A stretch of DNA of 64,000 nt from Acinetobacter phage vB_AbaSI_3. Position 1 is the first letter of the stretch, and each line of letters opens with the position of its first letter. The notes below the pieces were generated by a model. It was not told where the DNA came from and ran no database searches. It worked only from the letters and a program-made list of their open reading frames with translations. Where the stretch lies: sequence record PQ382034.1; one strand, 5' to 3'. The translations under genes and the position numbers were made by a program. Positions 8,882 to 51,570 of this stretch are shown here, piece by piece.

Positions 8882-8906
8882 TACCTTAGCATTCTTTGAA
8901 AAAGTA

Positions 8907-8936
8907 AAGGGACTCATTTGAGTCCCTTTTTTGTTT
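8907..8936. terminator. Bidirectional rho-independent terminator between gp23 and the inverted HEG-like ORF
   Basis: Hairpin agggactc-attt-gagtccct followed by TTTTTTG, with an A-run upstream. Confidence 0.7.
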
Positions 8937-10344
8937 TGTATAATATGTTACCACAGTCCCATATTCTCCGTAAACCGTTTGCATAGCAATTTTCAGATTC
9001 AGATAGTTCTTCATCAAATATTTCTAACTTGTCTTTAAGGACATGCTTCATGTAACCTGAACGATGTTTGAGTTCTCCATCAACAATATAAAAATATCCA
9101 GGCTTTGTTACTCCAACTTTCTCCATTCCCATTTGTTCATATACATTTCCGAAACTCCAGCGTCGATTTGCATATGAAATCAAATTCATTCCTTTAAGAA
9201 GTTTTGATGCACCGCCAACTACACAGGTATATTTTTTAGAACATAGTCTCAATAGTTCCATGTCATATCCTTTATTAAATCGTGGCTTACCAAACGTTGC
9301 AACTTGAACAAGTTCGCCGTTATAGAACAGACCTTTAGCTGATGATGCACCACATTTGCCTTGTAGATGGTTCTCTTCACAAAATTCATGTGCTACTGAA
9401 ACAGAGATATCTCTAATGACACATTTTCGAGCATAGATTGTTTTTGATTTGCCCAATTTGTGTGAAATGACTGATTTCCAAATTTCACGTTTTATTGGAT
9501 TTCGCCATTCATTTTCAAAAATGTGCAATAAGTGGATACCTTGCTTTTCGCATTCTTCGGTTTTTGAAATGTGAGAGTTTCTAATGTGTTTATCGTTATC
9601 AGAATCTCCTGAACTATGCCAGAAAATGCCATTGTACTCTATTGCGAGCTTATGCGAAGGAATATACAGATCTAATTCTCTTGGAGGTATTATGTCTCTT
9701 CTATTAATATCCACTGTAGCGCCTAGGCTTGTTATAAATTCATATAGTTCATCTTCTGCAATGGATCTACTTTTGGTACGAACACCATGATCAAGAGAAA
9801 TCCTATACATGAATGTATAATGGCACCCAATAATTTTAACCAATTCATCAAACCCATGTGTCTCGTACATTTTAGTGAATTGGGCTTTATCATATACCCA
9901 ATCTGGTATATGATCTCTGCTTGGTTTTCTCGCCTTTATGGATTTGATGCCTTCTTTGGTGGTCCCGACATCACCATAACGTTCTCTGCGAGTATCCCAA
10001 ACCTTTTGATGATAGTCATTTCGGCCTTTGAGAGCTGAAGAGATTTTCTTTGTCCTTGCCTCAACATCAGTGTTGCTTACTTTCTTTTGCTTGACTTCAG
10101 GATCGTTAGCCGAACATTTTCTACTACAATACAATGAACCAATAGGTGCTGGATTAGAGCATACTTTACATTTAGGCAGTTCTGTTAGACCTAGCATTGC
10201 TAGTTTCATAACCGTGCTATCATCAAGACTGGCGTCGTACGCTGAACGATCAAACTTATCTGGATTATTCTGCACTAATTTCCGCCAGTTTGGGTTTAGT
10301 TTGCCCTTTGCATTCTTAAAAAAATCTATGTCTATCATCATCAT
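8914..10344 (-). CDS. Free-standing homing-endonuclease-like protein with an N-terminal Cys4 zinc finger and a Vsr/DUF559-type PD-(D/E)XK nuclease motif (LAIEYNGIFWHS)
   Basis: 476 aa. It is inverted between gp23 and gp24, the T4 segD hotspot. CKVC...CSRKC zinc-finger residues at the N-terminus. IEYNG..WH matches the Vsr-like endonuclease signature. It shares a bidirectional terminator hairpin with gp23. Confidence 0.5.
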   Translation of the reverse strand: MMMIDIDFFKNAKGKLNPNWRKLVQNNPDKFDRSAYDASLDDSTVMKLAMLGLTELPKCKVCSNPAPIGSLYCSRKCSANDPEVKQKKVSNTDVEARTKKISSALKGRNDYHQKVWDTRRERYGDVGTTKEGIKSIKARKPSRDHIPDWVYDKAQFTKMYETHGFDELVKIIGCHYTFMYRISLDHGVRTKSRSIAEDELYEFITSLGATVDINRRDIIPPRELDLYIPSHKLAIEYNGIFWHSSGDSDNDKHIRNSHISKTEECEKQGIHLLHIFENEWRNPIKREIWKSVISHKLGKSKTIYARKCVIRDISVSVAHEFCEENHLQGKCGASSAKGLFYNGELVQVATFGKPRFNKGYDMELLRLCSKKYTCVVGGASKLLKGMNLISYANRRWSFGNVYEQMGMEKVGVTKPGYFYIVDGELKHRSGYMKHVLKDKLEIFDEELSESENCYANGLRRIWDCGNILYKTKKGLK

Positions 10345-10386
10345 CCACTCAATAGAAGTGTATAGGTATAATTATATATCATCGCA

Positions 10387-10394
10387 TATAAATA
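10387..10394 (+). promoter_or_regulatory. Late promoter TATAAATA upstream of gp24
   Basis: Exact octamer. Confidence 0.65.
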
Positions 10395-10425
10395 GTAAAT
10401 ATACGCGTATAAAAGGAACCAATTT

Positions 10426-11697
10426 ATGAATCAAAAACATATTGATAAACTTATGATTGAATCTGTTCAATCTGCTGATAGCTTAATTGACAAGCCAGCG
10501 TTATTAGGACTAACACGAGCTACAACAAATTTAGTCTATCATGACTTAGTTGCAACTCAATACACTGATAAGCCTATCGCTGCTCTATTTGGTGTAAAGT
10601 ACCTTAATCCAAATAAAGAATTAACATTCGTTACTGGTGCAACCTATGGCGGTGCTTACGGAGAAAAAGAACGAGCATCGATGGTAGAAGCAACTGTTGG
10701 CATGTCTCCATTAAAAGGCACCGAATTTAAGCACAATAATATTGTATATAAAGTACTAGTTGACGATCCATTTGCAGGCATTACTGAAACAGAATTAGAT
10801 GACATTATTGCAGAAGCAGTCATTCTATCGACAATTAGACTCGCATCTGAAGCAGCAGAAACATCAAAATTTGAAGCAGAAGATTCATCAATTTCTGATT
10901 CTCGGTTTGAGATCAATCGTTGGCAGGCTAATGTCAAGTCTCGTAAGTTAAAAACTGAATTGTCAGTTGAGCTTGCACAAGATTTAGAAGCCGCAGGTTT
11001 TGATACTGCCGAGTTGTTAGAAGATCTATTAGCTACACAAATGGCAGAAGAAATTAACAAAGACATCATGCAGTCGTTGATTACTGTTTCACGTAGATTC
11101 AAAATTGATGGTGCAGAAAATGCTATCCTAGATTTATCTGCAGTAGGAAGTTCAGTTGATCAAGCTCGTAATTTATACCGCTATGTATGTGAAATGAATG
11201 CGAATATTCAAAAAACTACTGCATATAGCGCTACATTTGTACTTGCTTCTGCTCGTGTTGCAGCTCTATTGTGTTCGTCTGGCTGGGTTAAAGCAAATAC
11301 AGATGAAACACCTGATGCATCGATGGGCGTCCTTAAAAATGGTCTTGCATTATATTCAGACAACAACAGCCCGGTGGATTACATTATTGTCGGCGTAAAA
11401 TCATCATTTGGCGAACAAGAAAATGTTGGGTCATTATTTTATGCTCCATATGTTGAAGGACGTCCCGAAGGCTCTGATCCAACTGACCATGTCGGTGCAT
11501 ACAAGGTCATTAATGATCCGAATAGTTTGCAACCAAAAATCATGTTACTTATTCGCTACGCATTGTCAGTGAACCCTTATACGGTCGGACTCACTGATGC
11601 ACAGGCAAAAGTTGTTGATTCTACAAATTTAGATAACTTCGCAGGTCAAAGTGATATGTCAATTATCCTTGGTGTTAAATTGCCAAAATTAAAGTAA
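10426..11697 (+). CDS. 24: Capsid vertex protein gp24 (gp23 paralogue)
   Basis: 423 aa. KSRKLKTELSVELAQDLEAAGFD parallels the gp23 motif. A TATAAATA late promoter lies upstream. Confidence 0.9.
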   Translation: MNQKHIDKLMIESVQSADSLIDKPALLGLTRATTNLVYHDLVATQYTDKPIAALFGVKYLNPNKELTFVTGATYGGAYGEKERASMVEATVGMSPLKGTEFKHNNIVYKVLVDDPFAGITETELDDIIAEAVILSTIRLASEAAETSKFEAEDSSISDSRFEINRWQANVKSRKLKTELSVELAQDLEAAGFDTAELLEDLLATQMAEEINKDIMQSLITVSRRFKIDGAENAILDLSAVGSSVDQARNLYRYVCEMNANIQKTTAYSATFVLASARVAALLCSSGWVKANTDETPDASMGVLKNGLALYSDNNSPVDYIIVGVKSSFGEQENVGSLFYAPYVEGRPEGSDPTDHVGAYKVINDPNSLQPKIMLLIRYALSVNPYTVGLTDAQAKVVDSTNLDNFAGQSDMSIILGVKLPKLK

Positions 11698-11725
11698 CAT
11701 TTCTTACTGAGATAAATTACACATA

Positions 11726-11757
11726 CAAAAAAGGGAGCCATTTGGCTCCCTTTTTTG
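11726..11757. terminator. Bidirectional terminator between gp24 and hoc
   Basis: aaaaaagggagcc-attt-ggctccc-tttttt. Confidence 0.8.
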
Positions 11758-11759
11758 GT

Positions 11760-12845
11760 TTAATATATGATTCCGGCATCCAATGCAGAACGATGAACAA
11801 TACGCCCATGTCTAGATTCTTGGACATCCACTTCCGGGAAATCTTTAATCATTTTAGCTAAAGTTAACAAATGATAGTAGTATGGATTATCTTCCGGAGG
11901 TTGTTTCCAATCACCACCAGTTTTTGTAATCTTTTCAATTTCATCCATTACCCACCAACCAGCCCAAATATATGCAGAATTACGATGTGGAAGAGGATGA
12001 ACATATTGACGTTTATCTTCAGGTATAACGATTTCTTTTTCTGAAACATTAACCGATGTACTTTTCTTAACAGTGAACGGCAAATAATTTGCATGGGTCG
12101 CAGTTAATGTACATTCATGGTTAACTGTACCAACGCTTGAAGCTGTTACATTAATTTTTGCTGTTGTCTCTCCAGTATTCCAAGCATAAGCATAAGTAAC
12201 ACCAGCTGGACCACCTGAGGCAATAGCATCAACAGAATAAACATCACCAACTTTAACATCAGAACTATCCGCCAACACGTTAAAATTGACACCAGTCATT
12301 GCAGTTTTATTAACAGTGATAGTCAACTCATTAGAATTGATAACTTTATCATTATAATCAGTTGCTTTAACTGTAATTTTACATGTAAGTTTTACTGGTC
12401 CAGGAGCAGTTGGCGTTTTAGTTGTAGTTGCTGTAGTAGAACCATCAGACCAAAGATATGTAATTGTTGCGCCAGCTGGTTGACCTGCAACAGTTGCTGT
12501 TGCTGTATAAGATTCACCAAAATTAATAGTAGGTTTCGATGTAGCAATAGAACCGGTAGTAGTCTGGGTAATTTTAGTTACAGTTAAGTTCGTTGTTGCC
12601 GTTTTAACATCATCAGCTTCGCCTTCGACTTTAGTTGTTGATGTAACTTTAATTACATTTGTGCCTACCTTTGTAGTTACATAATCTAAAGTATTTGTAG
12701 TCGACGCTTGAGCAACACCATCGACTTCCCATTTATATTCAACAGTCGAACCTTCTGGCGCACCAGTAACAGTTGCAGTAAACTTTTGGGTTTTCCCTTT
12801 TTCGACAGAAGGGTTAACTGGGGCTATTTGTAAGGTTGTTGCCAT
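11760..12845 (-). CDS. hoc: Hoc-like outer capsid protein with Ig-like repeats
   Basis: 361 aa. Thr/Val-rich Ig-like repeats followed by a Trp-rich C-terminal domain. Position after gp24 matches T4. Confidence 0.7.
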   Translation of the reverse strand: MATTLQIAPVNPSVEKGKTQKFTATVTGAPEGSTVEYKWEVDGVAQASTTNTLDYVTTKVGTNVIKVTSTTKVEGEADDVKTATTNLTVTKITQTTTGSIATSKPTINFGESYTATATVAGQPAGATITYLWSDGSTTATTTKTPTAPGPVKLTCKITVKATDYNDKVINSNELTITVNKTAMTGVNFNVLADSSDVKVGDVYSVDAIASGGPAGVTYAYAWNTGETTAKINVTASSVGTVNHECTLTATHANYLPFTVKKSTSVNVSEKEIVIPEDKRQYVHPLPHRNSAYIWAGWWVMDEIEKITKTGGDWKQPPEDNPYYYHLLTLAKMIKDFPEVDVQESRHGRIVHRSALDAGIIY

Positions 12846-16087: not shown

Positions 16088-16252
16088 TTTTAGCTTTTTA
16101 TCAGTGTACTTGCAACAAGGTACAAAATGAGAAATATAAACTCCTTGTTCATGACATGGACATCCACATTTTTTAATAATCTCATTCTGCTGTGCTGTTA
16201 GCACAGGTTTCCCAATTTTAAGAATTTTGTTTAGTACTTTTACTAATTTCAT
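16088..16252 (-). CDS. Small Cys-rich protein (CGCPCH...PCCK), 54 aa
   Basis: Translated by hand. Not in the ORF track because it is under 60 aa. Followed by a hairpin terminator. Confidence 0.3.
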
Positions 16253-16263
16253 AACAATAACTC

Positions 16264-16419
16264 TGTTTCTAATAGCATGTCATCATTAGATTCAAGTACT
16301 GGCATGTCTTGAATGTGCTGCAAGCAGTGTCCAGGATGGACAGGTCCTTGATCAGTCTCAACTACCAATGCTTCATCAATCGGCATCTTACATACCGAAC
16401 ATATACGTGTTTCCATTAT
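16264..16419 (-). CDS. Small Cys/His protein (CSVC...HPGHC), 51 aa
   Basis: Translated by hand. RBS GGAG. A TATAAATA late promoter lies just upstream, together with the 62-bp promoter/leader repeat. Confidence 0.35.
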
Positions 16420-16505
16420 TATTCTCCAAATGTGTATAGATGTATTTATAGATCTTTGAACAGCTGATATATCAGATACATCTAAACCATCAGTCCCCTA
16501 TCTTC

Positions 16506-16577
16506 TCCGACCGAATAGATATAATTAGAGCGGTGAACCGGTAGAACCATTATACCATCAAAATTTTATAAAGCAAA
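16506..16577 (-). repeat. Copy A of a roughly 62-bp conserved promoter/leader element, with a MotA-box-like TTTGCTTTA upstream
   Basis: tccgacc...ataattagagcggtgaaccggtagaaccattata(c)catcaaaatttt. On the minus strand it reads ..tttgctttataaaattttgatggTATAATggttctaccggttcaccgctctaattat.. with an extended -10 (TGgTATAAT). Confidence 0.6.
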
Positions 16578-16621
16578 TGTGTGCTTATACATAAGGCGTT
16601 CAACAGATCAAATTTTGATCA

Positions 16622-17020
16622 TCACTGATGTCTAGCGCCACTAAGCTGTAGCTTTAGTTGTTCAAGTGTATCCGGGTTATCTAAGATGCTAAACATAACA
16701 GTTACAATAATAGCATTATTATCATATTGTGCTTGCACTGACACGCCTAGTCTAACAATTCTTGGCTCATATGCACGAATAGCTGATGTTATGCTTTTTT
16801 CTACTGTACTAACTGTAAGTGGAGACATGTTTTCAAATAAAGCATCGCCAATTTCACAGCCGAATTCTGGGTCAAATGGACGAGAGCCTTTAGGTGTTGT
16901 AATAATTCCTAAAAGAGAATTTTTAACTGCACGTGCGCCAACAGATGCAGCTACATCCTTATTCCATGCACGTGCCATTTCAGGTGATATGTCTGTATAC
17001 ATATCATTAATATTTTGCAT
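16622..17020 (-). CDS. 25: Baseplate wedge protein gp25
   Basis: 132 aa, the same length as T4 gp25. Strong recalled match, e.g. IITTPKGSRPFDPEFGC and QLKLQL. Confidence 0.92.
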   Translation of the reverse strand: MQNINDMYTDISPEMARAWNKDVAASVGARAVKNSLLGIITTPKGSRPFDPEFGCEIGDALFENMSPLTVSTVEKSITSAIRAYEPRIVRLGVSVQAQYDNNAIIVTVMFSILDNPDTLEQLKLQLSGARHQ

Positions 17021-17664
17021 TATAGCACCTCAACAAATTCTTTAAAGCCTTTTATAATATGTACATGAGACTTGCCACACTTAGGACATTTGATTGGCAC
17101 AACCAGCACAGGTTGTGGAGCTAATAAAAATGATTTGATATAATTAATATCATCTTCAGTTATTGCATTGTATAGATCTTCTAATTCAAGCTCATTTAAA
17201 TCTTCTACAAAAATCCGTTCATCACCTACATAAATCGATTCTATTGATTTTGCAATCATTAATGGCACATTGTCGTCATCCCAGAGTTCAGGCCATCTAA
17301 ATGCAACTTTAAACTTTTTGAATGGATACAATGTCTCGAGATTACTATTGCCGTAATCTATCTGTGCTTTAGAGACATCTAACTCTACATCATGTACATG
17401 CCCGCATTCACATGTATATTCTTGAGTGACCTTTCCAAAATGTTCGCTATTTGCGATTAAATTGATTAGAACTAATTCGGCATCATGTTTTGGTAAATTC
17501 ATGAGCCCGGTACACTTCTCGATGATTGACGAGTATACCTTCTTCATATTATCGGAGATTGTCGAATCTTTAGAAATTATAAGGCTTGTATAATCTCTCA
17601 ATGAATATGATTTACATTCTACAACGCTAGAGCCTAACTTAACATTGAATTTCTTTTCAAACAT
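17020..17664 (-). CDS. 26: Baseplate hub subunit gp26
   Basis: 214 aa. Synteny after gp25. Cys pairs. Confidence 0.7.
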   Translation of the reverse strand: MFEKKFNVKLGSSVVECKSYSLRDYTSLIISKDSTISDNMKKVYSSIIEKCTGLMNLPKHDAELVLINLIANSEHFGKVTQEYTCECGHVHDVELDVSKAQIDYGNSNLETLYPFKKFKVAFRWPELWDDDNVPLMIAKSIESIYVGDERIFVEDLNELELEDLYNAITEDDINYIKSFLLAPQPVLVVPIKCPKCGKSHVHIIKGFKEFVEVL

Positions 17665-24333: not shown

Positions 24334-26415
24334 ATGTTAGAAACATTAACAGAAGCACAATTAAATGAAGTGCTTGAAACTGAAGGCAATAATTATGATG
24401 TGGTAGATTTGATGCCTAAAGCCAAAACACCGCAAATGTTTTTGCTAAAAGGTGATGGCATTGACAATTTAGTTGTTCGTTTAATGGCACAAAAGGAAGG
24501 CGGTGATACACTACGCAATCTTATGCCTAATGATAAAAATGTTGTAGTGTTTATCATGACACTAAATGATAAAGGTAACTTAGCTGAACTTAAAGGCGGT
24601 CTTGGCGCTAATCCGCTTAAAGCACTTACTACAATTTTTGATACTGTTTATAGCGCAATCAAGCCATCTGTGGTAGAAACTGTTATGTTCAGATTCCCTG
24701 CAAAGAAAATGGCAGGTCAAGAACGCGGTATACGTCGTGTATTGGAACGCCTTATTCAGGTACGTGGTAAAAATCGTTTTGTAGTTCTATCTGAAATGGC
24801 AAGCTTCTCTGCCAAATATTCATACGTAGTTGCACATAAACGAAATTTAGAATTGACCGACATCCCTGGCGCATCAATTGACACTGAGCGTTATAAGAAA
24901 GTTGATACTAAGGTCGGTGAAGTGTATATTGACAATGAAACAGGTAAAGACGTATCAAAGGCGGAAGCTATTGCACAGGCTGTTTCTACTGCAGTTAGTA
25001 AATTAACTACACAATCAGTTATCGCAAAGTCTAAAATCAGCCGCCGTGAAGCAATGGCAGCGATGTATTCATCAAGTGAATTTAGTGGCAAACCTGACGC
25101 ACGCCGCCAAAAATATGATGATAGCCATGCAGTTGTGCCGGCAACAGGCAATAAAACTCTCATTCAACAAAACATTAACAATATTGATCTAAAGAGTATT
25201 GGCCAAACACTGATGGAGTATGAGCATGCAACATGGGAAGATGAAACAAAATCAAGAATTGCTATTACTCCAATAAGAAATATTGTTGTTCCGATGATCA
25301 ACGATGTATTCGGTCACCGATCTACGAGCAAAGAAGGCAAAGCAATGGCTTCTAATATTATTAGAGGCATTGGCACCATCATTGCTGATGCTAACCCTAA
25401 AGATTTGCAGTCAATGATGGTAAAAATTTCAGAATTCATCTCGACTACAAGTTTTGGTGAACTTGACAAAACTGGAAGAATTAACTTCGCTAGAGGTATA
25501 ATTTTTGGATTGTTAAATGGACCAATTGGTGGCAGAATACGTATTGCATACGAAGATGATGAGGCTGAACATAAGATTCGTCGTCAATACACTGAAGATC
25601 AGGTTGAAGCCATTAAAGCCTATACAGGTTCAGATTTTTCTGACATTAATGGATTCCTTATTGGCCACTATGGCACATACCCAGGCCTAGAAGAAACTAT
25701 TGCACATTTAGATGAAGCATTCAAAAATGGGACCACTCTAGAACGCGGAACAATATTATACCGCGGACAAAGTGTTAAGTATGGCCAAATGAAATCAATT
25801 ATGGATACAAAAATGATGTATTTTAGAAATTTTGTATCTACATCGTTATATCCAGTGATTTATGGTGGATTCGCAAATGCAGTTGCAAATATTGAACCTA
25901 CTGCACAAGATCAAACTCATTTCACATCTGTAGATTTATCAAAATCTACATCATATACAAGTGATGCACATGATGCGATGAATGCTGGTACAATCGAAGA
26001 TTCCAATTATAGCGTATCAGTGGCTATGGTGATCAAAGGAGCTGATAAAATCAACGTTATCGTTCCTGGTAATATGTCTTCATATCCAAATGAATGCGAA
26101 GTAATTTTACCTCGTGGCACAATACTTAAAATTAATAAAGTTGTTGGAGAATCATTTGACTTCGGAGACTCTAATAACTCTATGCTAATGGAAACAACAG
26201 TAGTTGGTCCTGATCAGATCGATGAAAATACAGAAATGTATGATGGTGACCTATTTTTAAGTGAAGGGCGATTAGAAGTCATAAAACCGAGTATTGGCGC
26301 ATTTTATAATAATGAAGTTATAAACGAAGCCGTTATCCCTAATAATGATGATGCAACATCCATATTATTATCATTGATTGATTTTACTGGTATGCCGCAA
26401 AAGTTCATTGATTAA
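24334..26415 (+). CDS. alt: Alt-like ADP-ribosyltransferase (head-packaged)
   Basis: 693 aa. R-S-E style ART motifs (ILYRGQ, STS, PNECEVILPRG). LTE/LETE gp21-type processing motifs near the N-terminus. Position after gp54 as in T4. Confidence 0.7.
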   Translation: MLETLTEAQLNEVLETEGNNYDVVDLMPKAKTPQMFLLKGDGIDNLVVRLMAQKEGGDTLRNLMPNDKNVVVFIMTLNDKGNLAELKGGLGANPLKALTTIFDTVYSAIKPSVVETVMFRFPAKKMAGQERGIRRVLERLIQVRGKNRFVVLSEMASFSAKYSYVVAHKRNLELTDIPGASIDTERYKKVDTKVGEVYIDNETGKDVSKAEAIAQAVSTAVSKLTTQSVIAKSKISRREAMAAMYSSSEFSGKPDARRQKYDDSHAVVPATGNKTLIQQNINNIDLKSIGQTLMEYEHATWEDETKSRIAITPIRNIVVPMINDVFGHRSTSKEGKAMASNIIRGIGTIIADANPKDLQSMMVKISEFISTTSFGELDKTGRINFARGIIFGLLNGPIGGRIRIAYEDDEAEHKIRRQYTEDQVEAIKAYTGSDFSDINGFLIGHYGTYPGLEETIAHLDEAFKNGTTLERGTILYRGQSVKYGQMKSIMDTKMMYFRNFVSTSLYPVIYGGFANAVANIEPTAQDQTHFTSVDLSKSTSYTSDAHDAMNAGTIEDSNYSVSVAMVIKGADKINVIVPGNMSSYPNECEVILPRGTILKINKVVGESFDFGDSNNSMLMETTVVGPDQIDENTEMYDGDLFLSEGRLEVIKPSIGAFYNNEVINEAVIPNNDDATSILLSLIDFTGMPQKFID

Positions 26416-26420
26416 ACCGC

Positions 26421-26448
26421 AAAAAGGAGCCAAATGGCTCCTTTTGTG
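26421..26448 (+). terminator. Terminator after alt
   Basis: aaaaaggagcc-aaat-ggctcc-ttttgtg. Confidence 0.75.
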
Positions 26449-26632
26449 TTATAACGTGTGTGCTATTCGATTGACTTCAATACCATTAACATTTTCATAT
26501 GTTATTAGACCGTCTATAAACTTATCGCGTTTAAATGTGCTGTCAAAATTAATCAGCGTCGTAGATGTAGATATTGCTACTTCTTGTCCTATGCATATTT
26601 TGCTATGGATTTCTAAAAGAACTTTGTACATG

Positions 26633-46323: not shown

Positions 46324-47406
46324 TCAGAACCCGTTAAGGTCCTTTAGCAATTTTGTCAATTGATTTTTGACAAGATATGGATAGATTTTGCCGCGAGGAG
46401 CAGGTTTGTATTCTTTATAATGATTGATGATAGATTCACGAATATCGTCTCGAATATAATCAAAATCGATTAAAATACGATTACGTTTGAAACGATGGAA
46501 TTGCAAATCTGCGATTTGCTTTGCCATTGCCATGGCATCAGTTCTATATTGTTCAAGAATTTCACCATCTTCATCTTCAATTTGAACACCTTGGAGTTTG
46601 AGTAATTTGTGACATTCAGCCACACCTGTTTTTTTATTTTTAGCCTTTTTCATGATTTCTTCAGTTAAAGCTTCATAAACTTCATCATCCGATTTGCCGA
46701 CTAATTTTGTAACAAATGCTGCAGTTGTAGATGGAGTGCGTTCGTCTTCTTCATAATTTAACCAGAAGTCGCCACGAACTTTGATAGATGCTACACAGTC
46801 TTTGCGATCGCCTTTGAGAACTTTTGTTAAACAATCTTCTTGTGGCGAGCCAGTTTTGACTTTAACAAATTTTTTCTGAATAGGAGAATATTGATCTACG
46901 TCTTCAAGTTTATGTAACTGTGTAAAGTCGCCATCTGATGAAATGATACGAACTTTATACCCTTGTTTTGATAAATAAGATGACAAGACTGCAATACAAT
47001 CATCGGCCTCACAATGGCGAACATCAACTACAACCCAAGGCATGTTGTCTTTAAGTTCTTGAATTACAATACCAAGTGCATTAAAATAACCATCCCAGTC
47101 AAATGATTCTGCTTCCTTAGCTGCGTCACGTGCTATCGCACGGTTTCGTTTGTAATAATCTTCTTCTTGACGACGCCAATAGCCATAACGTGCATTATCA
47201 ATAGCGATAATAACATGGTCATACCCATCAGATTTAAATTTCAATGCATTATGTTTAATTGTCGACAAAACTAACTGACGAACAATTGGAACAGTGAACT
47301 TCATACCTGGTTCATATGTAACTGCCACAGTGGCTAAAGCGATTTGTGACAAATCGATAAGTAAAGCACCTGGCTTATCCTCACCGTAAAAATGGTCTAA
47401 ACTCAT
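46324..47406 (-). CDS. rnh: RNase H / 5'-3' flap exonuclease
   Basis: Starts at MSLDHF with RBS AAGGA. LIDLSQIAL and SSDGDFTQLHK match T4 RNase H. About 55 aa longer than the T4 protein because of internal insertions. Confidence 0.85.
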   Translation of the reverse strand: MSLDHFYGEDKPGALLIDLSQIALATVAVTYEPGMKFTVPIVRQLVLSTIKHNALKFKSDGYDHVIIAIDNARYGYWRRQEEDYYKRNRAIARDAAKEAESFDWDGYFNALGIVIQELKDNMPWVVVDVRHCEADDCIAVLSSYLSKQGYKVRIISSDGDFTQLHKLEDVDQYSPIQKKFVKVKTGSPQEDCLTKVLKGDRKDCVASIKVRGDFWLNYEEDERTPSTTAAFVTKLVGKSDDEVYEALTEEIMKKAKNKKTGVAECHKLLKLQGVQIEDEDGEILEQYRTDAMAMAKQIADLQFHRFKRNRILIDFDYIRDDIRESIINHYKEYKPAPRGKIYPYLVKNQLTKLLKDLNGF

Positions 47407-47460
47407 ACTACTATCCTTCTGATAAATCAAATACATCTAAAACATTCAAATTCAGTCTAT

Positions 47461-47532
47461 TCCGACCAAAGAAATATAATTAGAGCGGTGAACCGGTAGA
47501 ACCATTATAACATCAAAATTTTGAGTTGTAAA
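47461..47532 (-). repeat. Copy B of the roughly 62-bp promoter/leader element, with a near-consensus sigma70 promoter TTTACA-17-TGtTATAAT driving rnh
   Basis: The 34-bp core is identical to copy A (47476..47509 matches 16521..16554), plus the flanking tccgacc and catcaaaatttt. Minus strand: TTTACA (47527..47532), a 17-bp spacer, TGtTATAAT. Confidence 0.65.
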
Positions 47533-47622
47533 TGTTGCTTTAATTCAAGTGTTTAATAAATATACATAGAATCCAGAGCTCAGCTTTTAATAAATATATG
47601 ATAAGATAACAAAGGAAATCGC

Positions 47623-50600
47623 ATGTCTGAAGTAAAAACAAGTTTCCGTGCGTCATACGGTCTAGACGCGGCTGGTGAGAAAGTAATTAATGTTGCAAAG
47701 GCTGACAAAACTGTCATGACCGATGGTGTCAACGTCGAATATCTCATTCAGGAAAATACGACCCAACAATATGACCCAGAGCGTGCCTATGAAAAAGGAT
47801 TCATTATAGAATTTAATGATCGTCTCTGGATTGCAGAACAAGACATCCCTAAACCTGCAGGTAGCTTCAATGAAGGGTACTGGCGCCCAGTACGTACAGA
47901 CCCAAAGTGGAAGCCTATTGATTCTGGTAAATATCAGTTACATGTTGGTGATTATATCTCTGTAGATACGCGTGCAGGCTTAGATGTAGAACTAACATTA
48001 CCTACTAATCCTATACCACAGGAAGGCGATACAATTGTTGTAAAGGATGTCGGCGGGCAACCAGGTTACACATCGGTGTTAGTCTTTGCACCTGTGCAGT
48101 CAATTATTGACAAAGGCGTAAGTATTCCACAAAAACGAATGACTATTCCATTTTCTGAATGGACATTTGTATACACAAAGAGTCAATGGTCATTATATGA
48201 TGGCGTTGAAGCCCCAGTAGCAAGAACTGTTACTACATCTGGTCCTACTCGAATCCAATCAGGTGATACGATTCTTAGAAACTATGATAAAGTAGCTCCT
48301 ATTGTATTGACTTTTCCTAAATTTGCCAACAATGGCGACATAATTCATTTTGTAGGCATGAATGAAAATACAGTGCCTTATTATCACTTAGAGCTTAATG
48401 CATTTGATAGCAATACAAGTATTGGTTCTCCGGGTAAGTCATCGCAAATTTTCTATCGTTCGCTAAGTGGGTATTTCATTTTTAATAGCTTGACTTCAAC
48501 TTGGTATTTGTACGATTCAGATATGACAGATCGTCTTAGAACTGTTAGTACTGATACTGAGATTTTCCCGAATGAAACTGTAGCAGTAGTAGGCAAAGAT
48601 AATACTACTACACAGACTATTAAATTGACATTGCCACAAAACGTGCAACCTGGTGACCAGGTAACAATTTCATTAAATTATATTAGAAAGGGACAAACTG
48701 TTAACATCGTGCCTAAAGGCACCGATATGATTTTAACAAATCAAAATCTAACTCAGTTCCCTAAACGCTCAAGCTATCCACCTGCTGCCAATTGGGTTAA
48801 CACTAATTTATTGTCATATAACGGTTCAAACGACTACCCGCCGGTATTAACATTTGCATACATTGATATGGGACCTATCAAACAATGGCTGATGGTAAGT
48901 TGTTTGCCTGTATTAGAGCGTGTTGATCCGACAACAGATGATACTCGTACTCGTTTAGGTGTTATTGCTTTAGCAAATCAATCTCAAGCAAACTTAGACA
49001 AAGAAAATATTTCGGTTACTGCAAATCCATTAGCACGAGAAGTTGCTATCACGCCGGAAACTCTTGCCAATAGGACCGCTTTGGACAACCGTCGTGGAAT
49101 CGCAAGAATCGCAAAACAAGAAGAAGTAAACCTAACTACAGATAATGCTGCATTAGCATATGATACTATCGTTACGCCTAAGACTCTTAATGGCAAAAAG
49201 GCTACAGAAACGATGGTAGGTTTGGCAGAAATTGCTACTCAAGCCGAAACCAATAGCAACACTGACGATTCTCGTATCATCACTTCTAAGAAATTAGATG
49301 GACGACGCGCAACACCTGCTTTAGCCGGAGTCGCTAAACTTGTTGCTACAGGTGGCACTGCTCCTGTTAAAGGAGGTACAAATACTCGTGATACTGCCGG
49401 AACTGGCATTTATAATCATGCAGACTTCGAGAACATTGTTACACCTAAAACATTGAGAGAATATTATTCTACAGAAATGGCATTAGGTACAGTGTATCTT
49501 GCAAATTCTGCTGAAGTTATTTCTGGTGCAGCTACATTAGCTAAATATCCATTAGCAGTAACTCCTGAAACTTTGCACACTAAGACCGCTACCGATGGGC
49601 GTATAGGCTTTTCACAAGTGGCTAAACAAGCCGAAGTTGATGCTGGAACAGATTATTTTAAATTTGTTACACCAAAAACTTTAGCAGGAAGAATTGCACG
49701 AGAAGACTTAGCCGGTATCGCAAAATTAGCAACCCAAGGCGAATTTGACGCTGGTACAGCTGGATTAATTTCAGGCCCAGATAAAATTAAGACATTTTTC
49801 TCTCGCGCTGAAAGAACTATTGTCAATAATGCTGAAGGTTTAACACAATCTGGTAGCATTTGGACCGGGTTAAAGTTGAATATTCTTGCACCATCAGAGA
49901 CCCAACGTGGTACAGCAAGATATGCTACGCAAGATGAAACAGATAAAGGTGTTGATGCCACAACAATTGTGACTCCTGCAAAATTACATGCCAAGAAAGC
50001 CACTACAGTTGCAGAAGGTATTGTCAGAATGGCAAATACTGCTGAGACGGTAGCTGGTACTGCATATAATTTAGCAGTATCGCCTGGCAATCTAAAATAT
50101 GTTGTACAATCTGAATTGACATGGGAGGCCACACCTGAACGTAGAGGTTTCATTAAACTTTCTACAGGTTCAACAACATGGCAAGGCAACACAGTTGATG
50201 GTAATGCAAATATCAACATTGAAACTCAATTCAACAAAAATGGTATGGCTGTTTCGCCGTATGAGTTCAACCGTGTTTTGAGGAACTATTTACCTATTGG
50301 TGCTAAAGCAGTTGATTCTGATAAATTAGATGGATTGGATTCATCACAGTTTATTCGTAGAGACATTGGCCAAATTGTTAATGGCGCATTAACACTGACA
50401 CAGCCTACAACTGCAACATACATTACTGCTTCTAATGATGTATCAGTCCAAGCTCTTTTATCTGCTAATCAGATTAACGTACGAAAATCTGGAACTCCTG
50501 ATGATGCGTCTGTTACAAAGAACGCTGGTATAAATTTGTATGGCGCTCCACAAATTGCTACAGGGCGTCCGACCTACGGTATTCATTTTTCTAGTACTGG

Positions 50601-51570
50601 TGGCACAGACCCTAATGGGACACATGGCTATGGCGCCGGGACTTGGGGTACATATTTTGCTCAAAGCATCGCTAGCGCAGCTGAACAACGCGCATGGTAC
50701 TTCCAGCAGATTTTTAACGGTGCAGTTAAAAACGTTGGCTCTATCACAGCACAAGGCGATGTTTGGTTTGATGGTGTTATCAATACAGACAAAACCTTTA
50801 GAATCAAAAACAACATCATTGCTGAAAAAGATGCTGGTGGTAACTTGATTATTGGTACTCCTGATCAACAAATGTATTTCCGTTCTAAAGATGCAGGAGA
50901 TGTTAGAGTTCAAGAAGCTGTTGCAGGAACAGTATACCGTGTCGTTACGACTAAAAACTTTGTTGACGAAGGTAATAAAACTTATGTGAGAAAGACCGGC
51001 GATTCAATGACCGGACGCCTCAATATTTCTCAACCTATAACTGCTACTATCAACCAATCTGCTGCGACACCAAATGCAGTTCCAAATGCCAGCAATTTTG
51101 GTACATGGACTATTGATATAACTGATCCTGCAATATATAATACTATGCGCCCGTATGTTGTTGGAGTAAATGCAATCAATAAAGAGACAGGTGAAGTCTT
51201 GCCATGGTTTGATAAGTACGAGGAGTTTAATGGGCCTGGTACATTGTCACAATTTGGATCTTCTGCTAGTAATGGTTCTGGTACATACCAAATCTGGGCA
51301 CCACGTCCGCCAGCAGATAAAGCGAATTTACCTGGGCATATTGCTGGCACAATGTGGTCAAGACAGTGGAATCCTATTACAAATAAATGGGATGGTTGGG
51401 GTAGAATGTTTACAAACAATCATCCGCCATTGCCTACAGACATTGGCGCTATGAGCAATAATGGTTCAGTTTTTGATTCTATGAGAATTAGAGATTGGAT
51501 TCAAGTAGGTAATTTGAGAATTTATGCAGACCCATCTACAAAAACCGTTCGTTTTGATTGGATTGAATAA
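47623..51570 (+). CDS. 34: Long tail fibre proximal subunit gp34
   Basis: 1315 aa. It contains about 8 tandem repeats of roughly 40 aa (..VTPKTL/VTPETL..) typical of phage fibre repeats. Synteny. Confidence 0.85.
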   Translation: MSEVKTSFRASYGLDAAGEKVINVAKADKTVMTDGVNVEYLIQENTTQQYDPERAYEKGFIIEFNDRLWIAEQDIPKPAGSFNEGYWRPVRTDPKWKPIDSGKYQLHVGDYISVDTRAGLDVELTLPTNPIPQEGDTIVVKDVGGQPGYTSVLVFAPVQSIIDKGVSIPQKRMTIPFSEWTFVYTKSQWSLYDGVEAPVARTVTTSGPTRIQSGDTILRNYDKVAPIVLTFPKFANNGDIIHFVGMNENTVPYYHLELNAFDSNTSIGSPGKSSQIFYRSLSGYFIFNSLTSTWYLYDSDMTDRLRTVSTDTEIFPNETVAVVGKDNTTTQTIKLTLPQNVQPGDQVTISLNYIRKGQTVNIVPKGTDMILTNQNLTQFPKRSSYPPAANWVNTNLLSYNGSNDYPPVLTFAYIDMGPIKQWLMVSCLPVLERVDPTTDDTRTRLGVIALANQSQANLDKENISVTANPLAREVAITPETLANRTALDNRRGIARIAKQEEVNLTTDNAALAYDTIVTPKTLNGKKATETMVGLAEIATQAETNSNTDDSRIITSKKLDGRRATPALAGVAKLVATGGTAPVKGGTNTRDTAGTGIYNHADFENIVTPKTLREYYSTEMALGTVYLANSAEVISGAATLAKYPLAVTPETLHTKTATDGRIGFSQVAKQAEVDAGTDYFKFVTPKTLAGRIAREDLAGIAKLATQGEFDAGTAGLISGPDKIKTFFSRAERTIVNNAEGLTQSGSIWTGLKLNILAPSETQRGTARYATQDETDKGVDATTIVTPAKLHAKKATTVAEGIVRMANTAETVAGTAYNLAVSPGNLKYVVQSELTWEATPERRGFIKLSTGSTTWQGNTVDGNANINIETQFNKNGMAVSPYEFNRVLRNYLPIGAKAVDSDKLDGLDSSQFIRRDIGQIVNGALTLTQPTTATYITASNDVSVQALLSANQINVRKSGTPDDASVTKNAGINLYGAPQIATGRPTYGIHFSSTGGTDPNGTHGYGAGTWGTYFAQSIASAAEQRAWYFQQIFNGAVKNVGSITAQGDVWFDGVINTDKTFRIKNNIIAEKDAGGNLIIGTPDQQMYFRSKDAGDVRVQEAVAGTVYRVVTTKNFVDEGNKTYVRKTGDSMTGRLNISQPITATINQSAATPNAVPNASNFGTWTIDITDPAIYNTMRPYVVGVNAINKETGEVLPWFDKYEEFNGPGTLSQFGSSASNGSGTYQIWAPRPPADKANLPGHIAGTMWSRQWNPITNKWDGWGRMFTNNHPPLPTDIGAMSNNGSVFDSMRIRDWIQVGNLRIYADPSTKTVRFDWIE

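What the first reader, a model, noticed from the sequence alone, without database searches (positions are those of the whole stretch)
16506..16577. Roughly 62-bp near-identical intergenic element present twice (16.5 kb and 47.5 kb): a portable promoter plus conserved 5' leader
A 34-bp core (ataattagagcggtgaaccggtagaaccattata) is identical in both copies. It is flanked by the conserved tccgacc and (c/a)catcaaaatttt. On the minus strand each copy supplies a -10 TATAAT with an extended TG motif, followed by an identical roughly 45-nt transcribed leader (GGTTCTACCGGTTCACCGCTCTAATTAT...GGTCGGA) that ends just before the RBS. Copy B has a near-consensus sigma70 promoter (TTTACA-17-TGtTATAAT) in front of rnh. 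Copy A is preceded by a MotA-box-like TTTGCTTTA and drives a 51-aa Cys/His micro-ORF that also has its own late promoter. Identical leaders on unrelated genes suggest either a shared post-transcriptional control site (RNA structure or protein binding) or a PeSL-like mobile promoter cassette that moves by recombination.
Basis: seen in the sequence. Interest (0 to 1): 0.6.

Follow-up and report, generated by a model that had tools for sequence, protein, structure and literature searches.

The report
Five evenly spaced promoter repeats in phage
The two near-identical intergenic blocks are real and belong to a family of five promoter-containing repeats. The five are spaced almost evenly around the genome of a T4-like Acinetobacter phage, and they look more like replication-origin or primer-RNA promoters than ordinary gene leaders.

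Summary
The window comes from a T4-like Acinetobacter myovirus of the Lazarusvirus group. The 34-bp exact repeat (16521-16554 and 47476-47509) is the core of the only substantial dispersed repeat in the window.

Complete genomes carry exactly five copies. They sit at the same five sites and in the same orientations in two genera, with gaps of 29-39 kb (P about 3e-5 to 3e-4 for such even spacing).

A 30-nt block, TATAATGGTTCTACCGGTTCACCGCTCTAA (the -10 hexamer plus the start of the transcript), is invariant in 17 distinct copies apart from a 1-nt deletion variant, while the adjacent non-coding DNA is only 36-73% identical. Copies evolve in concert within a genome.

Two of the five copies point against the surrounding genes and form self-contained units of about 170 nt. 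Copy A sits exactly where T4 has oriF (the uvsY promoter). Copy B sits beside the position of T4 oriG and fires in the same direction.

The shared RNA has no significant structure, no Rfam match and no antisense target in the phage.

Best reading, at moderate confidence: transcription-primed replication origins of the T4 oriF/oriG type that share one sequence. The rivals are a shared RNA 5' module, a PmSL-like promoter cassette, and an operator for a regulator.

The element is unannotated in all 57 records that carry it, and none of the papers searched mentions it.

The parts
16606..16620 (.). Copy A: upstream near-palindrome GATCAAATTTTGATC, next to the gene 25 stop codon. Related GwTTAAAwwTGATC motifs lie about 60 nt upstream of the -10 in 8 of 10 copies examined.
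16569..16589 (-). Copy A: MotA-box-like TTTGCTTTA (16569-16577) with an imperfect inverted partner TATAAGCA (16582-16589). The box lies 14 nt upstream of the -10.
   Evidence: T4 consensus and 12+/-1 spacing from PMC2988021.
16549..16557 (-). Copy A: extended -10, TGgTATAAT.
16525..16554 (-). Copy A: invariant 30-nt block TATAATGGTTCTACCGGTTCACCGCTCTAA. The predicted transcription start is near 16542 (inferred from the distance to the -10, not mapped).
16498..16524 (-). Copy A: semi-conserved transcribed block ...TTATATCTATTCGGTCGGAGAAGATAG. It evolves in concert among the copies of a genome.
16464..16486 (-). Copy A: distal A+T-rich conserved block TTTAGATGTATCTGATATATCAG, in the easiest-melting stretch of the element.
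16443..16450 (-). Late-promoter-like TATAAATA ahead of the small ORF. It is not part of the repeat.
   Evidence: sequence reading
16249..16416 (-). 55-aa Cys-rich ORF downstream of copy A, a homologue of T4 UvsY.-2.
16622..17020 (-). Gene 25 (baseplate wedge subunit), directly upstream of copy A. This is the same arrangement as gene 25 and oriF in T4.
47527..47532 (-). Copy B: -35 hexamer TTTACA. This is an early-type promoter, specific to this site in both genera.
47480..47509 (-). Copy B: the invariant 30-nt block, including the -10 at 47504-47509. The predicted start is near 47497 (inferred).
47453..47479 (-). Copy B: semi-conserved transcribed block ...TTATATTTCTTTGGTCGGAATAGACTG.
47419..47441 (-). 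Copy B: distal conserved block TTTAGATGTATTTGATTTATCAG. It ends at the rnh Shine-Dalgarno sequence (AAGGATAG, 47411-47418).
46324..47406 (-). rnh (RNase H). The true start is the ATG at 47406, giving 360 aa as annotated in KARL-1. The longer ORF starting at 47436 begins inside the repeat.
47623..51570 (+). Gene 34 (proximal long tail fibre), divergent from copy B.

Best explanation
The two blocks are members of a five-copy family of short transcription modules, and I propose these are the phage's replication origins of the T4 oriF/oriG type.

Anatomy of a module, in order:
- an upstream A/T-rich near-palindrome;
- a MotA-box-like motif, often as an inverted pair (copy B has a sigma-70 -35 hexamer instead);
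- an extended -10;
- an invariant start of the transcript;
- a stretch of about 25 nt that evolves in concert among copies;
- two G+C-rich hairpins in some copies;
- an easily melted A+T-rich stretch.

Proposed mechanism, by analogy with T4: host RNA polymerase fires from the module early or in the middle of infection. The unstructured conserved 5' RNA stays hybridised to the template as an R-loop. It is then cut to give the primer for leading-strand synthesis, and the displaced strand lets the helicase and primase load.

What is shown: the anatomy, the copy number, the spacing, the orientation, the conservation and the synteny with T4 oriF.

What is inferred: transcription from the predicted start, R-loop formation and any origin activity.

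The strict invariance of the 30-nt block further suggests recognition by a trans-acting factor, either an initiator protein or a processing nuclease. T4 origins are not known to need one.
For: 1. Copy number and placement. There are five copies per genome, at 17.5, 48.7, 81.8, 114.8 and 146.8 kb in LemonAid, with gaps of 31.1, 33.1, 33.1, 32.0 and 38.5 kb. PhT2 (genus Hadassahvirus) has the same five syntenic sites and the same orientations relative to the genes, with gaps of 29.0-38.9 kb. Under uniform random placement the probability of such even spacing is about 3e-5 and 3e-4. All 50 Acinetobacter-named records plus one mislabelled 'Tegunavirus' record show 5 places each. The occasional sixth place, checked only in KARL-1, is a record-end artefact there.

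2. Orientation is independent of gene direction. The srd copy and the gene 2/gene 3 copy point against the flanking genes in both genera. Each forms a self-contained unit of about 170 nt that ends at the bidirectional terminator of the convergent gene. In the T4 GenBank record the primer RNAs of oriG and oriE are likewise antisense to genes 34 and 5.

3. Synteny with T4 origins. T4 oriF is annotated at 115321, 83 bp after the stop of gene 25, on the minus strand, and its primer is the uvsY transcript. The -10 of copy A lies 68-73 bp after the stop of gene 25, on the same strand, and is followed by the uvsY.-2 homologue. The two promoters have similar architecture: T4 TGCTTCA-13-TATAAT against copy A TGCTTTA-14-TATAAT. 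Copy B lies in the rnh/34 gap and fires toward rnh. T4 oriG lies 2.1 kb inside gene 34 and fires the same way. The gene 2/3 and srd copies lie about 3.4 and about 5 kb from the T4 oriE and oriA positions.

4. Relation to strand switches. Three copies sit at switches of transcription strand and two sit inside the long early region. The review describes the same pattern for T4: oriE, oriF and oriG against oriA and oriC (PMC3016281).

5. Purifying selection. The core is 86-96% identical between genera while the adjacent non-coding DNA is 36-73% identical. The 30-nt block is invariant in 17 distinct copies, apart from a 1-nt deletion variant.

6. The conserved RNA is unstructured. That does not fit a structured leader, but it does suit hybrid formation with the template.

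7. The two G+C-rich hairpins keep their stems while their loops vary (ACA, TGT, TTC).
Against: - There is no experimental evidence of any kind: no mapped transcription start, no replication data.
- T4 R-loop origins need no specific sequence downstream of the promoter (PMC3016281). Origin function alone therefore does not explain a 30-nt invariant block.
- The DNA directly after the -10 (+1 to +40) has average duplex stability. An easily melted stretch appears only at +60 to +120, and intergenic DNA in this phage is A+T-rich anyway.
- The MotA-like box lies 14 nt from the -10, one more than T4's 12+/-1. Copy B has no MotA box at all.
- The gene-43 copy has no T4 origin counterpart, and T4 oriC has no counterpart among the five.
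- The skew profile shows no replication signal separate from transcription.
- ZZ1, from a sister genus, has a different, single-copy sequence at the gene 25 site. The shared sequence is therefore a derived feature that could have spread as a cassette.
- The spacing statistic is post hoc, and the two genomes are not independent samples.
Confidence: 0.35

Rival explanations
1. A shared RNA 5' module. The conserved first 45 nt or so of the transcript act at the RNA level. On three mRNAs (the uvsY.-2 operon, rnh, and the ORFs inside split gene 43) they would be a binding site for a protein or nuclease that controls stability or translation. On the two stand-alone RNAs of about 170 nt they would act as a decoy, or as a trans-acting small RNA with a 5' seed.
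For: - Conservation is strongest from the -10 to about +45 and weaker upstream of the -10.
- Two copies are self-contained units that end at terminator-like hairpins.
- Three copies run into a Shine-Dalgarno sequence and a start codon.
- An unstructured 5' end is typical of seed regions.
Against: - There is no conserved secondary structure and no Rfam family.
- The phage genome holds no complementary stretch of 11 nt or more; 3.5 are expected from shuffles.
- The invariant block includes the untranscribed discriminator (the bases between the -10 and the start).
- An RNA function gives no reason for near-equidistant placement or for the match to the T4 oriF position.
Confidence: 0.25
2. A promoter-terminator cassette of the PeSL/PmSL kind. 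The module spread by homologous recombination in the ancestor of Lazarusvirus and Hadassahvirus. It is kept uniform by gene conversion, acts simply as a strong promoter with a hairpin upstream, and serves as a substrate for modular shuffling.
For: - An inverted repeat (TAAAGCAC...GTGCTTTA) lies directly upstream of, and overlaps, the MotA-like box in most copies. The scan flags it as terminator-like at the srd copy.
- Copies evolve in concert (AATTAT in Lazarusvirus against AAATTT in Hadassahvirus), and variants swap between sites: the KARL-1 srd copy carries the LemonAid gene-43-type variant.
- The repeat is absent from ZZ1.
- The srd and gene-43 copies lie in poorly conserved regions.
- PmSL elements with Mot boxes are described in phage nt-1 (PMC4122927).
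Against: - PeSLs are numerous and clustered in hyperplastic regions. They are oriented with the downstream ORF, end in a Shine-Dalgarno sequence and start codon, and are conserved at the promoter and terminator motifs (PMC4122927).
- Here there are only five copies, at fixed sites across two genera. They are evenly spaced, two are antisense, and the conserved part is the transcribed block.
- Gene conversion alone cannot keep the 30-nt block identical between genera while neighbouring non-coding DNA has fallen to 36-73% identity.
Confidence: 0.2
3. An operator of a small regulon. The block from -12 to +18, with its direct repeat GGTTC-N4-GGTTC, is the binding site of a phage or host DNA-binding regulator that switches five promoters on or off together.
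For: - The invariant block overlaps the -10 and the start site, the usual place for an operator.
- It contains a 9-bp-spaced direct repeat and the palindrome ACCGGT (sequence reading).
- It is the same at promoters that have different upstream elements, one early-type and four MotA-type.
Against: - No candidate regulator was identified.
- This reading does not explain why two members drive no gene, nor the even spacing.
- No other promoter in the genome shares the block: TATAATGGTTC occurs elsewhere only without the rest of the core.
Confidence: 0.1
4. A chance or neutral duplication with no function.
For: None, beyond the absence of experimental data.
Against: - A 34-bp exact match has zero expected occurrences by chance.
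- There are five copies at conserved sites in 51 records from two genera.
- The core is far better conserved than its non-coding surroundings.
Confidence: 0.01

Closest known systems
Bacteriophage T4 origins oriF (ori-uvsY) and oriG (ori-34): a MotA-dependent middle promoter plus a downstream unwinding element, with an R-loop primer
   Same: - Both are promoter-based modules of roughly 100-160 bp.
- Copy A occupies the same site (just after gene 25), the same strand and the same promoter class as T4 oriF.
- Copy B neighbours the oriG position and fires the same way.
- Some members are antisense to genes, as at T4 oriG and oriE.
- There are about five per genome, three of them at strand-switch points.
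   Different: - T4 origins share no sequence motif (PMC3016281). Here all five share an invariant 30-nt block and evolve in concert.
- The DNA just after the promoter is not A+T-rich.
- The MotA-like box sits 14 nt from the -10 rather than 12+/-1.
- Copy B uses a sigma-70 -35 hexamer.
- Spacing is more even than in T4: 29-39 kb against about 20-42 kb, the latter assuming oriC lies near rI.-1.
PeSL / PmSL elements of T4-type phages (promoter-early or promoter-middle stem-loop cassettes; Arbiol 2010, Comeau 2014)
   Same: - Both are composite intergenic repeats with a stem-loop directly upstream of an early or Mot-box promoter.
- Both are repeated within a genome and are a likely substrate for homologous recombination or gene conversion.
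   Different: - PeSLs number in the tens, cluster in hyperplastic regions next to indels, always face a downstream ORF, and are conserved at the motif level.
- This family has five members at fixed, evenly spaced sites. Two face away from genes, and the best-conserved part lies downstream of the -10.
Other transcript-primed origins: the T7 primary origin (tandem promoters plus an A+T-rich region), ColE1 RNA II, the mitochondrial light-strand promoter with its conserved sequence blocks (from my own knowledge; ColE1 and mitochondria are also cited in PMC3016281)
   Same: - A promoter is an integral part of the origin.
- Conserved sequence downstream of the start marks where the RNA stays hybridised or is processed into a primer.
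   Different: - Those systems have one origin or a few per replicon, not five identical evenly spaced copies.
- Nothing here has been shown biochemically.

Membership tests
T4 oriF/oriG-type R-loop origin | Middle-mode promoter: a MotA box (a/t)(a/t)(a/t)TGCTTtA placed 12+/-1 bp upstream of a sigma-70 -10 element | tested here: inconclusive
   TGCTTTA or a close variant lies 14 nt upstream of TATAAT at four of the five sites. Copy B has TTTACA-17-TATAAT instead. T4 PuvsY has 13 nt. The consensus comes from PMC2988021. The phage encodes MotA-like and AsiA-like proteins. Dependence on MotA cannot be tested here.
T4 oriF/oriG-type R-loop origin | An A+T-rich DNA unwinding element of about 50 bp directly downstream of the promoter | tested here: inconclusive
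   Forty-bp windows from 0 to +40 have a duplex stability of -47 to -53 kcal/mol, against a genome mean of -49.5. Easy-melting windows (-39 to -44, around the top 5%) occur at +60 to +120 in most of the 10 copies.
T4 oriF/oriG-type R-loop origin | A persistent R-loop whose RNA primes leading-strand synthesis, and autonomous replication of origin plasmids in infected cells | not testable with these tools
   This needs infection experiments. See PMC3016281 for the T4 assays.
T4 oriF/oriG-type R-loop origin | Map position corresponding to a known T4 origin | tested here: met
   The match is exact for oriF: gene 25, then the module, then the uvsY.-2 homologue. Copy B is within 2.2 kb of oriG and fires in the same direction. 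The other matches are within about 3.4 kb of oriE and about 5 kb of oriA. The gene-43 copy has no T4 counterpart.
PeSL / PmSL cassette | [quoted passage not shown] | tested here: met
   TGTAAAGCACGCGTGCTTTACA is flagged as a 9-pair terminator-like hairpin at the srd copy. Imperfect inverted repeats are present at seven of the eight MotA-type copies and absent at the rnh/34 copies.
PeSL / PmSL cassette | The 3' end carries the Shine-Dalgarno sequence and start codon of the downstream gene, so the element faces a gene | tested here: not met
   This holds for three of five copies. The srd copy and the gene 2/3 copy face the 3' end of a convergent gene in both genera.
PeSL / PmSL cassette | Many copies, concentrated in hyperplastic regions and associated with indels between close relatives | tested here: not met
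   There are five copies, evenly spaced, at the same sites in Lazarusvirus and Hadassahvirus. Only the srd and gene-43 copies lie in poorly conserved DNA.
Structured cis-regulatory RNA leader or known RNA family | A conserved secondary structure, or a match to a curated covariance model | tested here: not met
   Fold z-scores are +0.2, -0.7 and +0.1 for copy A, copy B and the 45-nt core. Rfam gives no match better than E = 1.3.
Trans-acting small RNA | A discrete transcript with its own terminator and a complementary target | tested here: inconclusive
   Terminator-like ends are found for two of five copies. No complement of 11 nt or more exists in the phage genome. Host targets were not tested.

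The most novel reading that the evidence does not exclude
This clade of Acinetobacter T4-like phages has replaced the heterogeneous origins of T4 with five copies of a single sequence-defined origin module. The copies are spaced one-fifth of a genome apart and kept identical by gene conversion. Their invariant block from -12 to +18 is recognised by a dedicated initiator or primer-processing factor. That would be the first sequence-specific, multi-copy origin system in the T4 family.
Probability: 0.3. Interest if true: 0.8.

Novelty: new variant of a known kind. Interest (0 to 1): 0.6.

Why it matters
How T4-type phages choose and fire their origins is an acknowledged open question. [quoted passage not shown]' (PMC3016281). 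T4 is hard to dissect on this point because its origins share no sequence.

A clade in which five candidate origins share one invariant module would make the question directly testable. One probe, one set of point mutations and one pull-down bait would address all five sites.

The phages concerned (KARL-1, the AB-Navy phages, AC4, Maestro, DLP1-3, LemonAid) are therapy candidates against multidrug-resistant A. baumannii, so knowing their replication control elements has practical value.

There are also practical consequences whatever the function:
- The repeat coincides with the ends of two deposited genome records, probably because it breaks short-read assemblies. KARL-1 carries a 116-bp terminal overlap made of it, and the AbTZA1 record starts inside it.
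- It attracts what look like spurious ORF calls in several deposited genomes.

Tried and rejected
- **Rfam.** A permissive scan of copy A found only chance hits to eukaryotic families, E >= 1.3.
- **RNA folding.** All five LemonAid transcripts and the 45-nt core were folded. There is no significant structure in the shared part. Only copy-specific downstream hairpins stand out.
- **Antisense targets.** A search for targets of the core within the phage genome found fewer matches than shuffled controls.
- **GATC clustering** as an origin hallmark: none. The sites have 0-3 GATC per 301 bp against a mean of about 1.
- **GC and AT skew.** Skew follows gene direction only, with no separate signal at the srd and gene-43 copies.
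- **Exact core in other collections.** It is absent from 185,579 bacterial and archaeal genomes and from the JGI metagenomes. This argues against a host-derived sequence. IMG/VR holds only AbTZA1 and Kimel.
- **A sixth copy** reported for KARL-1, AC4, Maestro and AB-Navy-v2. In KARL-1 it is a 116-bp terminal overlap of the linear record, consisting of the srd copy. The other three records were not checked.
- **An analogous repeat in ZZ1.** The gene 25/uvsY.-2 gap in ZZ1 has a promoter-like region, but its sequence is unrelated and single-copy.
- **A coding reading.** ATGGTTCTACCGG... opens a 27-codon frame, but its ATG lies inside the -10 with no ribosome-binding site. Rejected.
- **Generic middle promoter.** I tested whether the upstream part is simply this phage's standard middle promoter. 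Only a handful of TGCTTYA-N-TAnAAT sites exist, and no spacing is preferred.
- **Resemblance to lambda boxA.** CGCTCTAA in the core differs from lambda boxA, CGCTCTTA, at one position. This is recalled from memory, is a single post hoc match and was not tested. Processive antitermination is in any case hard to reconcile with the two antisense copies.
- **Literature.** No paper in the library contains the core sequence. The KARL-1, AB-Navy, DLP1/2 and ZZ1 genome papers do not mention the repeat. No transcription-start data for these phages were found.

Full report
**Observation.** The 34-bp core ATAATTAGAGCGGTGAACCGGTAGAACCATTATA occurs exactly twice in the window, at 16521-16554 and 47476-47509. 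None is expected by chance. The repeat finder extends the pair to 80 nt at 85% identity (16501-16580 against 47456-47535). No other dispersed repeat in the window exceeds 48 nt or about 87% identity. A pairwise alignment of the minus strands shows a second shared block further downstream, TTTAGATGTATyTGATwTATCAG (16464-16486 and 47419-47441).

Copy B is TTTACA-17-TGtTATAAT, an 11/12 match to consensus. Copy A has TTTGCTTTA 14 nt upstream of TGgTATAAT and no -35 hexamer. Three corrections apply. The leaders are identical for only about 28 nt after the -10. The small ORF after copy A is 55 aa, not 51, and is the homologue of T4 UvsY.-2 (62% identity, E 2e-25; phrog_1043). The true rnh start is the ATG at 47406, so the longer ORF that begins at 47436 starts inside the repeat.

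**What the window is.** It comes from a T4-like Acinetobacter myovirus. The 201 bp around copy A are 99-100% identical to KARL-1, AM101, fHyAci03, LemonAid and about 30 other Lazarusvirus records. A 111-nt query of the element finds 51 records with near-full-length matches: 50 named Acinetobacter and one Acinetobacter phage mislabelled 'Tegunavirus'. Each has 5 places, occasionally 6. The match falls on no annotated feature in most of these records, and on 'hypothetical protein' calls in a few.

**Genome-wide picture.** I fetched the whole LemonAid genome. It holds five copies, at 17.5 (-), 48.7 (-), 81.8 (+), 114.8 (-) and 146.8 (+) kb. Their sites are:
- just after gene 25;
- between rnh and gene 34;
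- between srd and a phosphatase gene;
- between the two halves of a split gene 43;
- between genes 3 and 2.

PhT2 belongs to a different genus (Hadassahvirus) and its record is inverted relative to LemonAid. It has five copies at the same five sites, in the same orientation relative to the genes.

The gaps are 31.1, 33.1, 33.1, 32.0 and 38.5 kb in LemonAid and 29.0-38.9 kb in PhT2. Under uniform random placement on a circle, the probability that all five gaps are this large is about 3e-5 and 3e-4. This test is post hoc, the two genomes are related, and sites are restricted to intergenic DNA. It is therefore strong but not formal evidence.

The 'sixth place' was checked only in KARL-1, where it is an artefact: the linear record carries a 116-bp terminal overlap that is the srd copy. 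The AbTZA1 record starts 2 nt before the -10 of the gene-43 copy.

**Anatomy.** Seventeen distinct copies from LemonAid, PhT2, Kimel, AbTZA1 and KARL-1 were aligned, with further copies from Minot, AB-Navy71 and BRC001. Across these, TATAATGGTTCTA(C)CGGTTCACCGCTCTAA is invariant. The only variation is a variant lacking one C in some Hadassahvirus copies.

Downstream, about 25 nt (..TTATATCTATTCGGTCGGAGAAGATAG) are conserved but evolve in concert. All Lazarusvirus copies read AATTAT where the Hadassahvirus copies read AAATTT. Variants also move between sites: the KARL-1 srd copy carries the variant found at gene 43 in LemonAid.

Upstream, the sequence is site-specific and orthologous between genera. 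The rnh/34 copy has a sigma-70 -35 hexamer in both genera. The other four have a MotA-box-like TGCTTTA, usually paired with an inverted partner (TAAAGCAC..GTGCTTTA), plus a near-palindrome GATyAAAwwTTGATC about 60 nt upstream of the -10.

The srd and gene-43 copies carry two G+C-rich hairpins, GCTGCtgcGCAGC and CGGCGCnnnGCGCCG. Their stems are kept while the loops vary (ACA, TGT, TTC).

Between genera the core is 86-96% identical, while the adjacent non-coding DNA is 36-73% identical. The core is therefore under purifying selection and is not merely homogenised within each genome.

**Why 'promoter plus leader' is not the common function.** Two copies point against the neighbouring genes in both genera. 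At the srd site the predicted transcript runs about 170 nt: through the core and the G+C hairpins to the bidirectional terminator AAAGGAGCCAAATGGCTCCTTT of the convergent phosphatase gene. At the gene 2/3 site it likewise ends at a terminator-like hairpin at the 3' end of gene 2, and nothing translatable follows.

The shared RNA is not structured: z = +0.2, -0.7 and +0.1 against shuffles. It matches no Rfam family. It has no complement of 11 nt or more in the phage genome.

**Comparison with T4.**
- oriF: the T4 GenBank record places it at 115321, on the minus strand, 83 bp after the stop of gene 25, with the uvsY transcript as primer. The -10 of copy A lies 68-73 bp after the stop of gene 25, on the same strand, with uvsY.-2 downstream. 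The T4 promoter reads TGCTTCA-13-TATAAT against TGCTTTA-14-TATAAT here.
- oriG lies 2.1 kb inside gene 34, is antisense and points toward rnh. Copy B lies in the rnh/34 gap and points the same way.
- oriE is antisense inside gene 5. The gene 2/3 copy lies about 3.4 kb away and is also antisense, although its direction along the map is opposite.
- oriA lies upstream of gene 56. The srd copy is about 5 kb away in T4 map terms.
- The gene-43 copy has no T4 counterpart, and T4 oriC (near rI.-1 according to the review; not annotated in the record) has none here.
- Three of the five copies lie at strand-switch points and two inside the long early region. The review describes the same split for T4 origins.
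- The review also states that oriF and oriG are a MotA-dependent promoter plus an A+T-rich unwinding element, that R-loop formation needs no specific sequence, and that T4 origins share no motif.

**Best explanation.** I rate a family of transcript-primed origins as the single most likely reading, at 0.35. It is the only reading that accounts together for the even spacing, the indifference to gene orientation, the stand-alone short transcription units and the exact match to the oriF position.

Several things weaken it. There are no experimental data. The DNA directly after the promoter is not A+T-rich; easy-melting DNA appears only at +60 to +120. The MotA-box spacing is one outside the T4 range. 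T4-type origins give no reason for an invariant 30-nt block, so a trans-acting recognition step has to be added as a further assumption.

**Rivals.**
- An RNA-level 5' module (0.25). This fits the position of the conservation and the two terminated short RNAs. It does not explain the spacing, the conserved discriminator, or the lack of structure and targets.
- A PmSL/PeSL-like cassette (0.2). This fits the upstream hairpin, the concerted evolution and the absence of the repeat from ZZ1. It fails three defining PeSL features: many copies in hyperplastic regions, orientation toward a gene with a Shine-Dalgarno sequence and start codon, and conservation limited to the promoter and terminator motifs.
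- An operator overlapping the -10 and the start site (0.1). This is possible but leaves the two gene-less members and the spacing unexplained.
- Chance is excluded.

These readings are not mutually exclusive. A cassette could have spread into pre-existing origin or promoter sites in the common ancestor of the two genera.

**Novelty.** The core sequence occurs in no paper of the searchable library. The genome papers on KARL-1, the AB-Navy phages, DLP1/2 and ZZ1 do not mention the repeat. No searched record annotates it as an element. It is absent from bacterial genomes and metagenomes.

I class it as a new variant of a known kind. It is either a set of T4-type promoter origins that, unlike T4's, share one sequence and are evenly spaced, or an atypical PmSL. 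Marker-frequency sequencing and a plasmid amplification assay would settle the question quickly.

Noticed in passing
L021:1-116 and L022:646-761 (KARL-1, NC_049441.1); L020:1-30 (AbTZA1, NC_049445.1): The KARL-1 linear record carries a 116-bp direct terminal overlap that is exactly the srd copy of the element. The AbTZA1 record starts 2 nt upstream of the -10 of the gene-43 copy. The likely cause is short-read assemblies breaking at the longest dispersed repeat. The alternative, that these are preferred physical DNA ends, was not tested.
   Followed up: partly
window 11723-11770, 26405-26452, 8906-8934; L002:31903-31924: The same bidirectional terminator hairpin, AAAGG(G)AGCC-AWWT-GGCTCC(C)TTT flanked by A and T runs, recurs at several gene ends. 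It is a second, shorter family of reused regulatory sequence.
   Followed up: no
LemonAid OR608380.1 CDS0020 (17290-17448), CDS0113 (81776-81943), CDS0183 (114753-114860), CDS0250 (146928-147038); AB-Navy71_161; BRC001 CDS_0138: Small 'hypothetical protein' ORFs are called on top of, or right beside, copies of the element in several records. LemonAid does not annotate the UvsY.-2 homologue and calls an opposite-strand ORF there instead. These calls are probably artefacts.
   Followed up: partly
LemonAid 112426-117113 (outside the window); PhT2 159729-164557: The DNA polymerase gene 43 is split into two ORFs separated by about 2 kb of small ORFs. One copy of the element sits in that insert, in poorly conserved DNA (36-56% identity between genera).
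   Followed up: no
window 16249-17020: uvsY and uvsY.-1, which lie between gene 25 and uvsY.-2 in T4, are missing from this locus. Gene 25 is followed directly by the repeat and then by the uvsY.-2 homologue. I did not look for uvsY elsewhere in the genome.
   Followed up: no
L024:5800-6020 (ZZ1, NC_018087, gene 25 / uvsY.-2 gap): ZZ1 has, at the equivalent site, a hairpin (AATGCTAT..ATAGCATT), a TTTGCTTTT box and a TATAAT followed by an unrelated G+C-rich start, GCGGGCTGCGCCATTGGG. The sequence is single-copy in ZZ1, Henu6 and W16.
   Followed up: partly
PhT2 8477 (+), 23580 (+), 25078 (+); LemonAid 70450 (-): A few other promoters share TATAATGGTTC (PhT2 8477 even shares TGTTATAATGGTTCTACC) but lack the rest of the core. 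The first bases after the -10 may therefore be a more general promoter feature in these phages.
   Followed up: no
LemonAid record 9784-11328 (near window 8.8-10.3 kb if collinear): A homing endonuclease gene is annotated between two 'major head protein' ORFs (genes 23 and 24) on the opposite strand. I did not check it against the window sequence.
   Followed up: no
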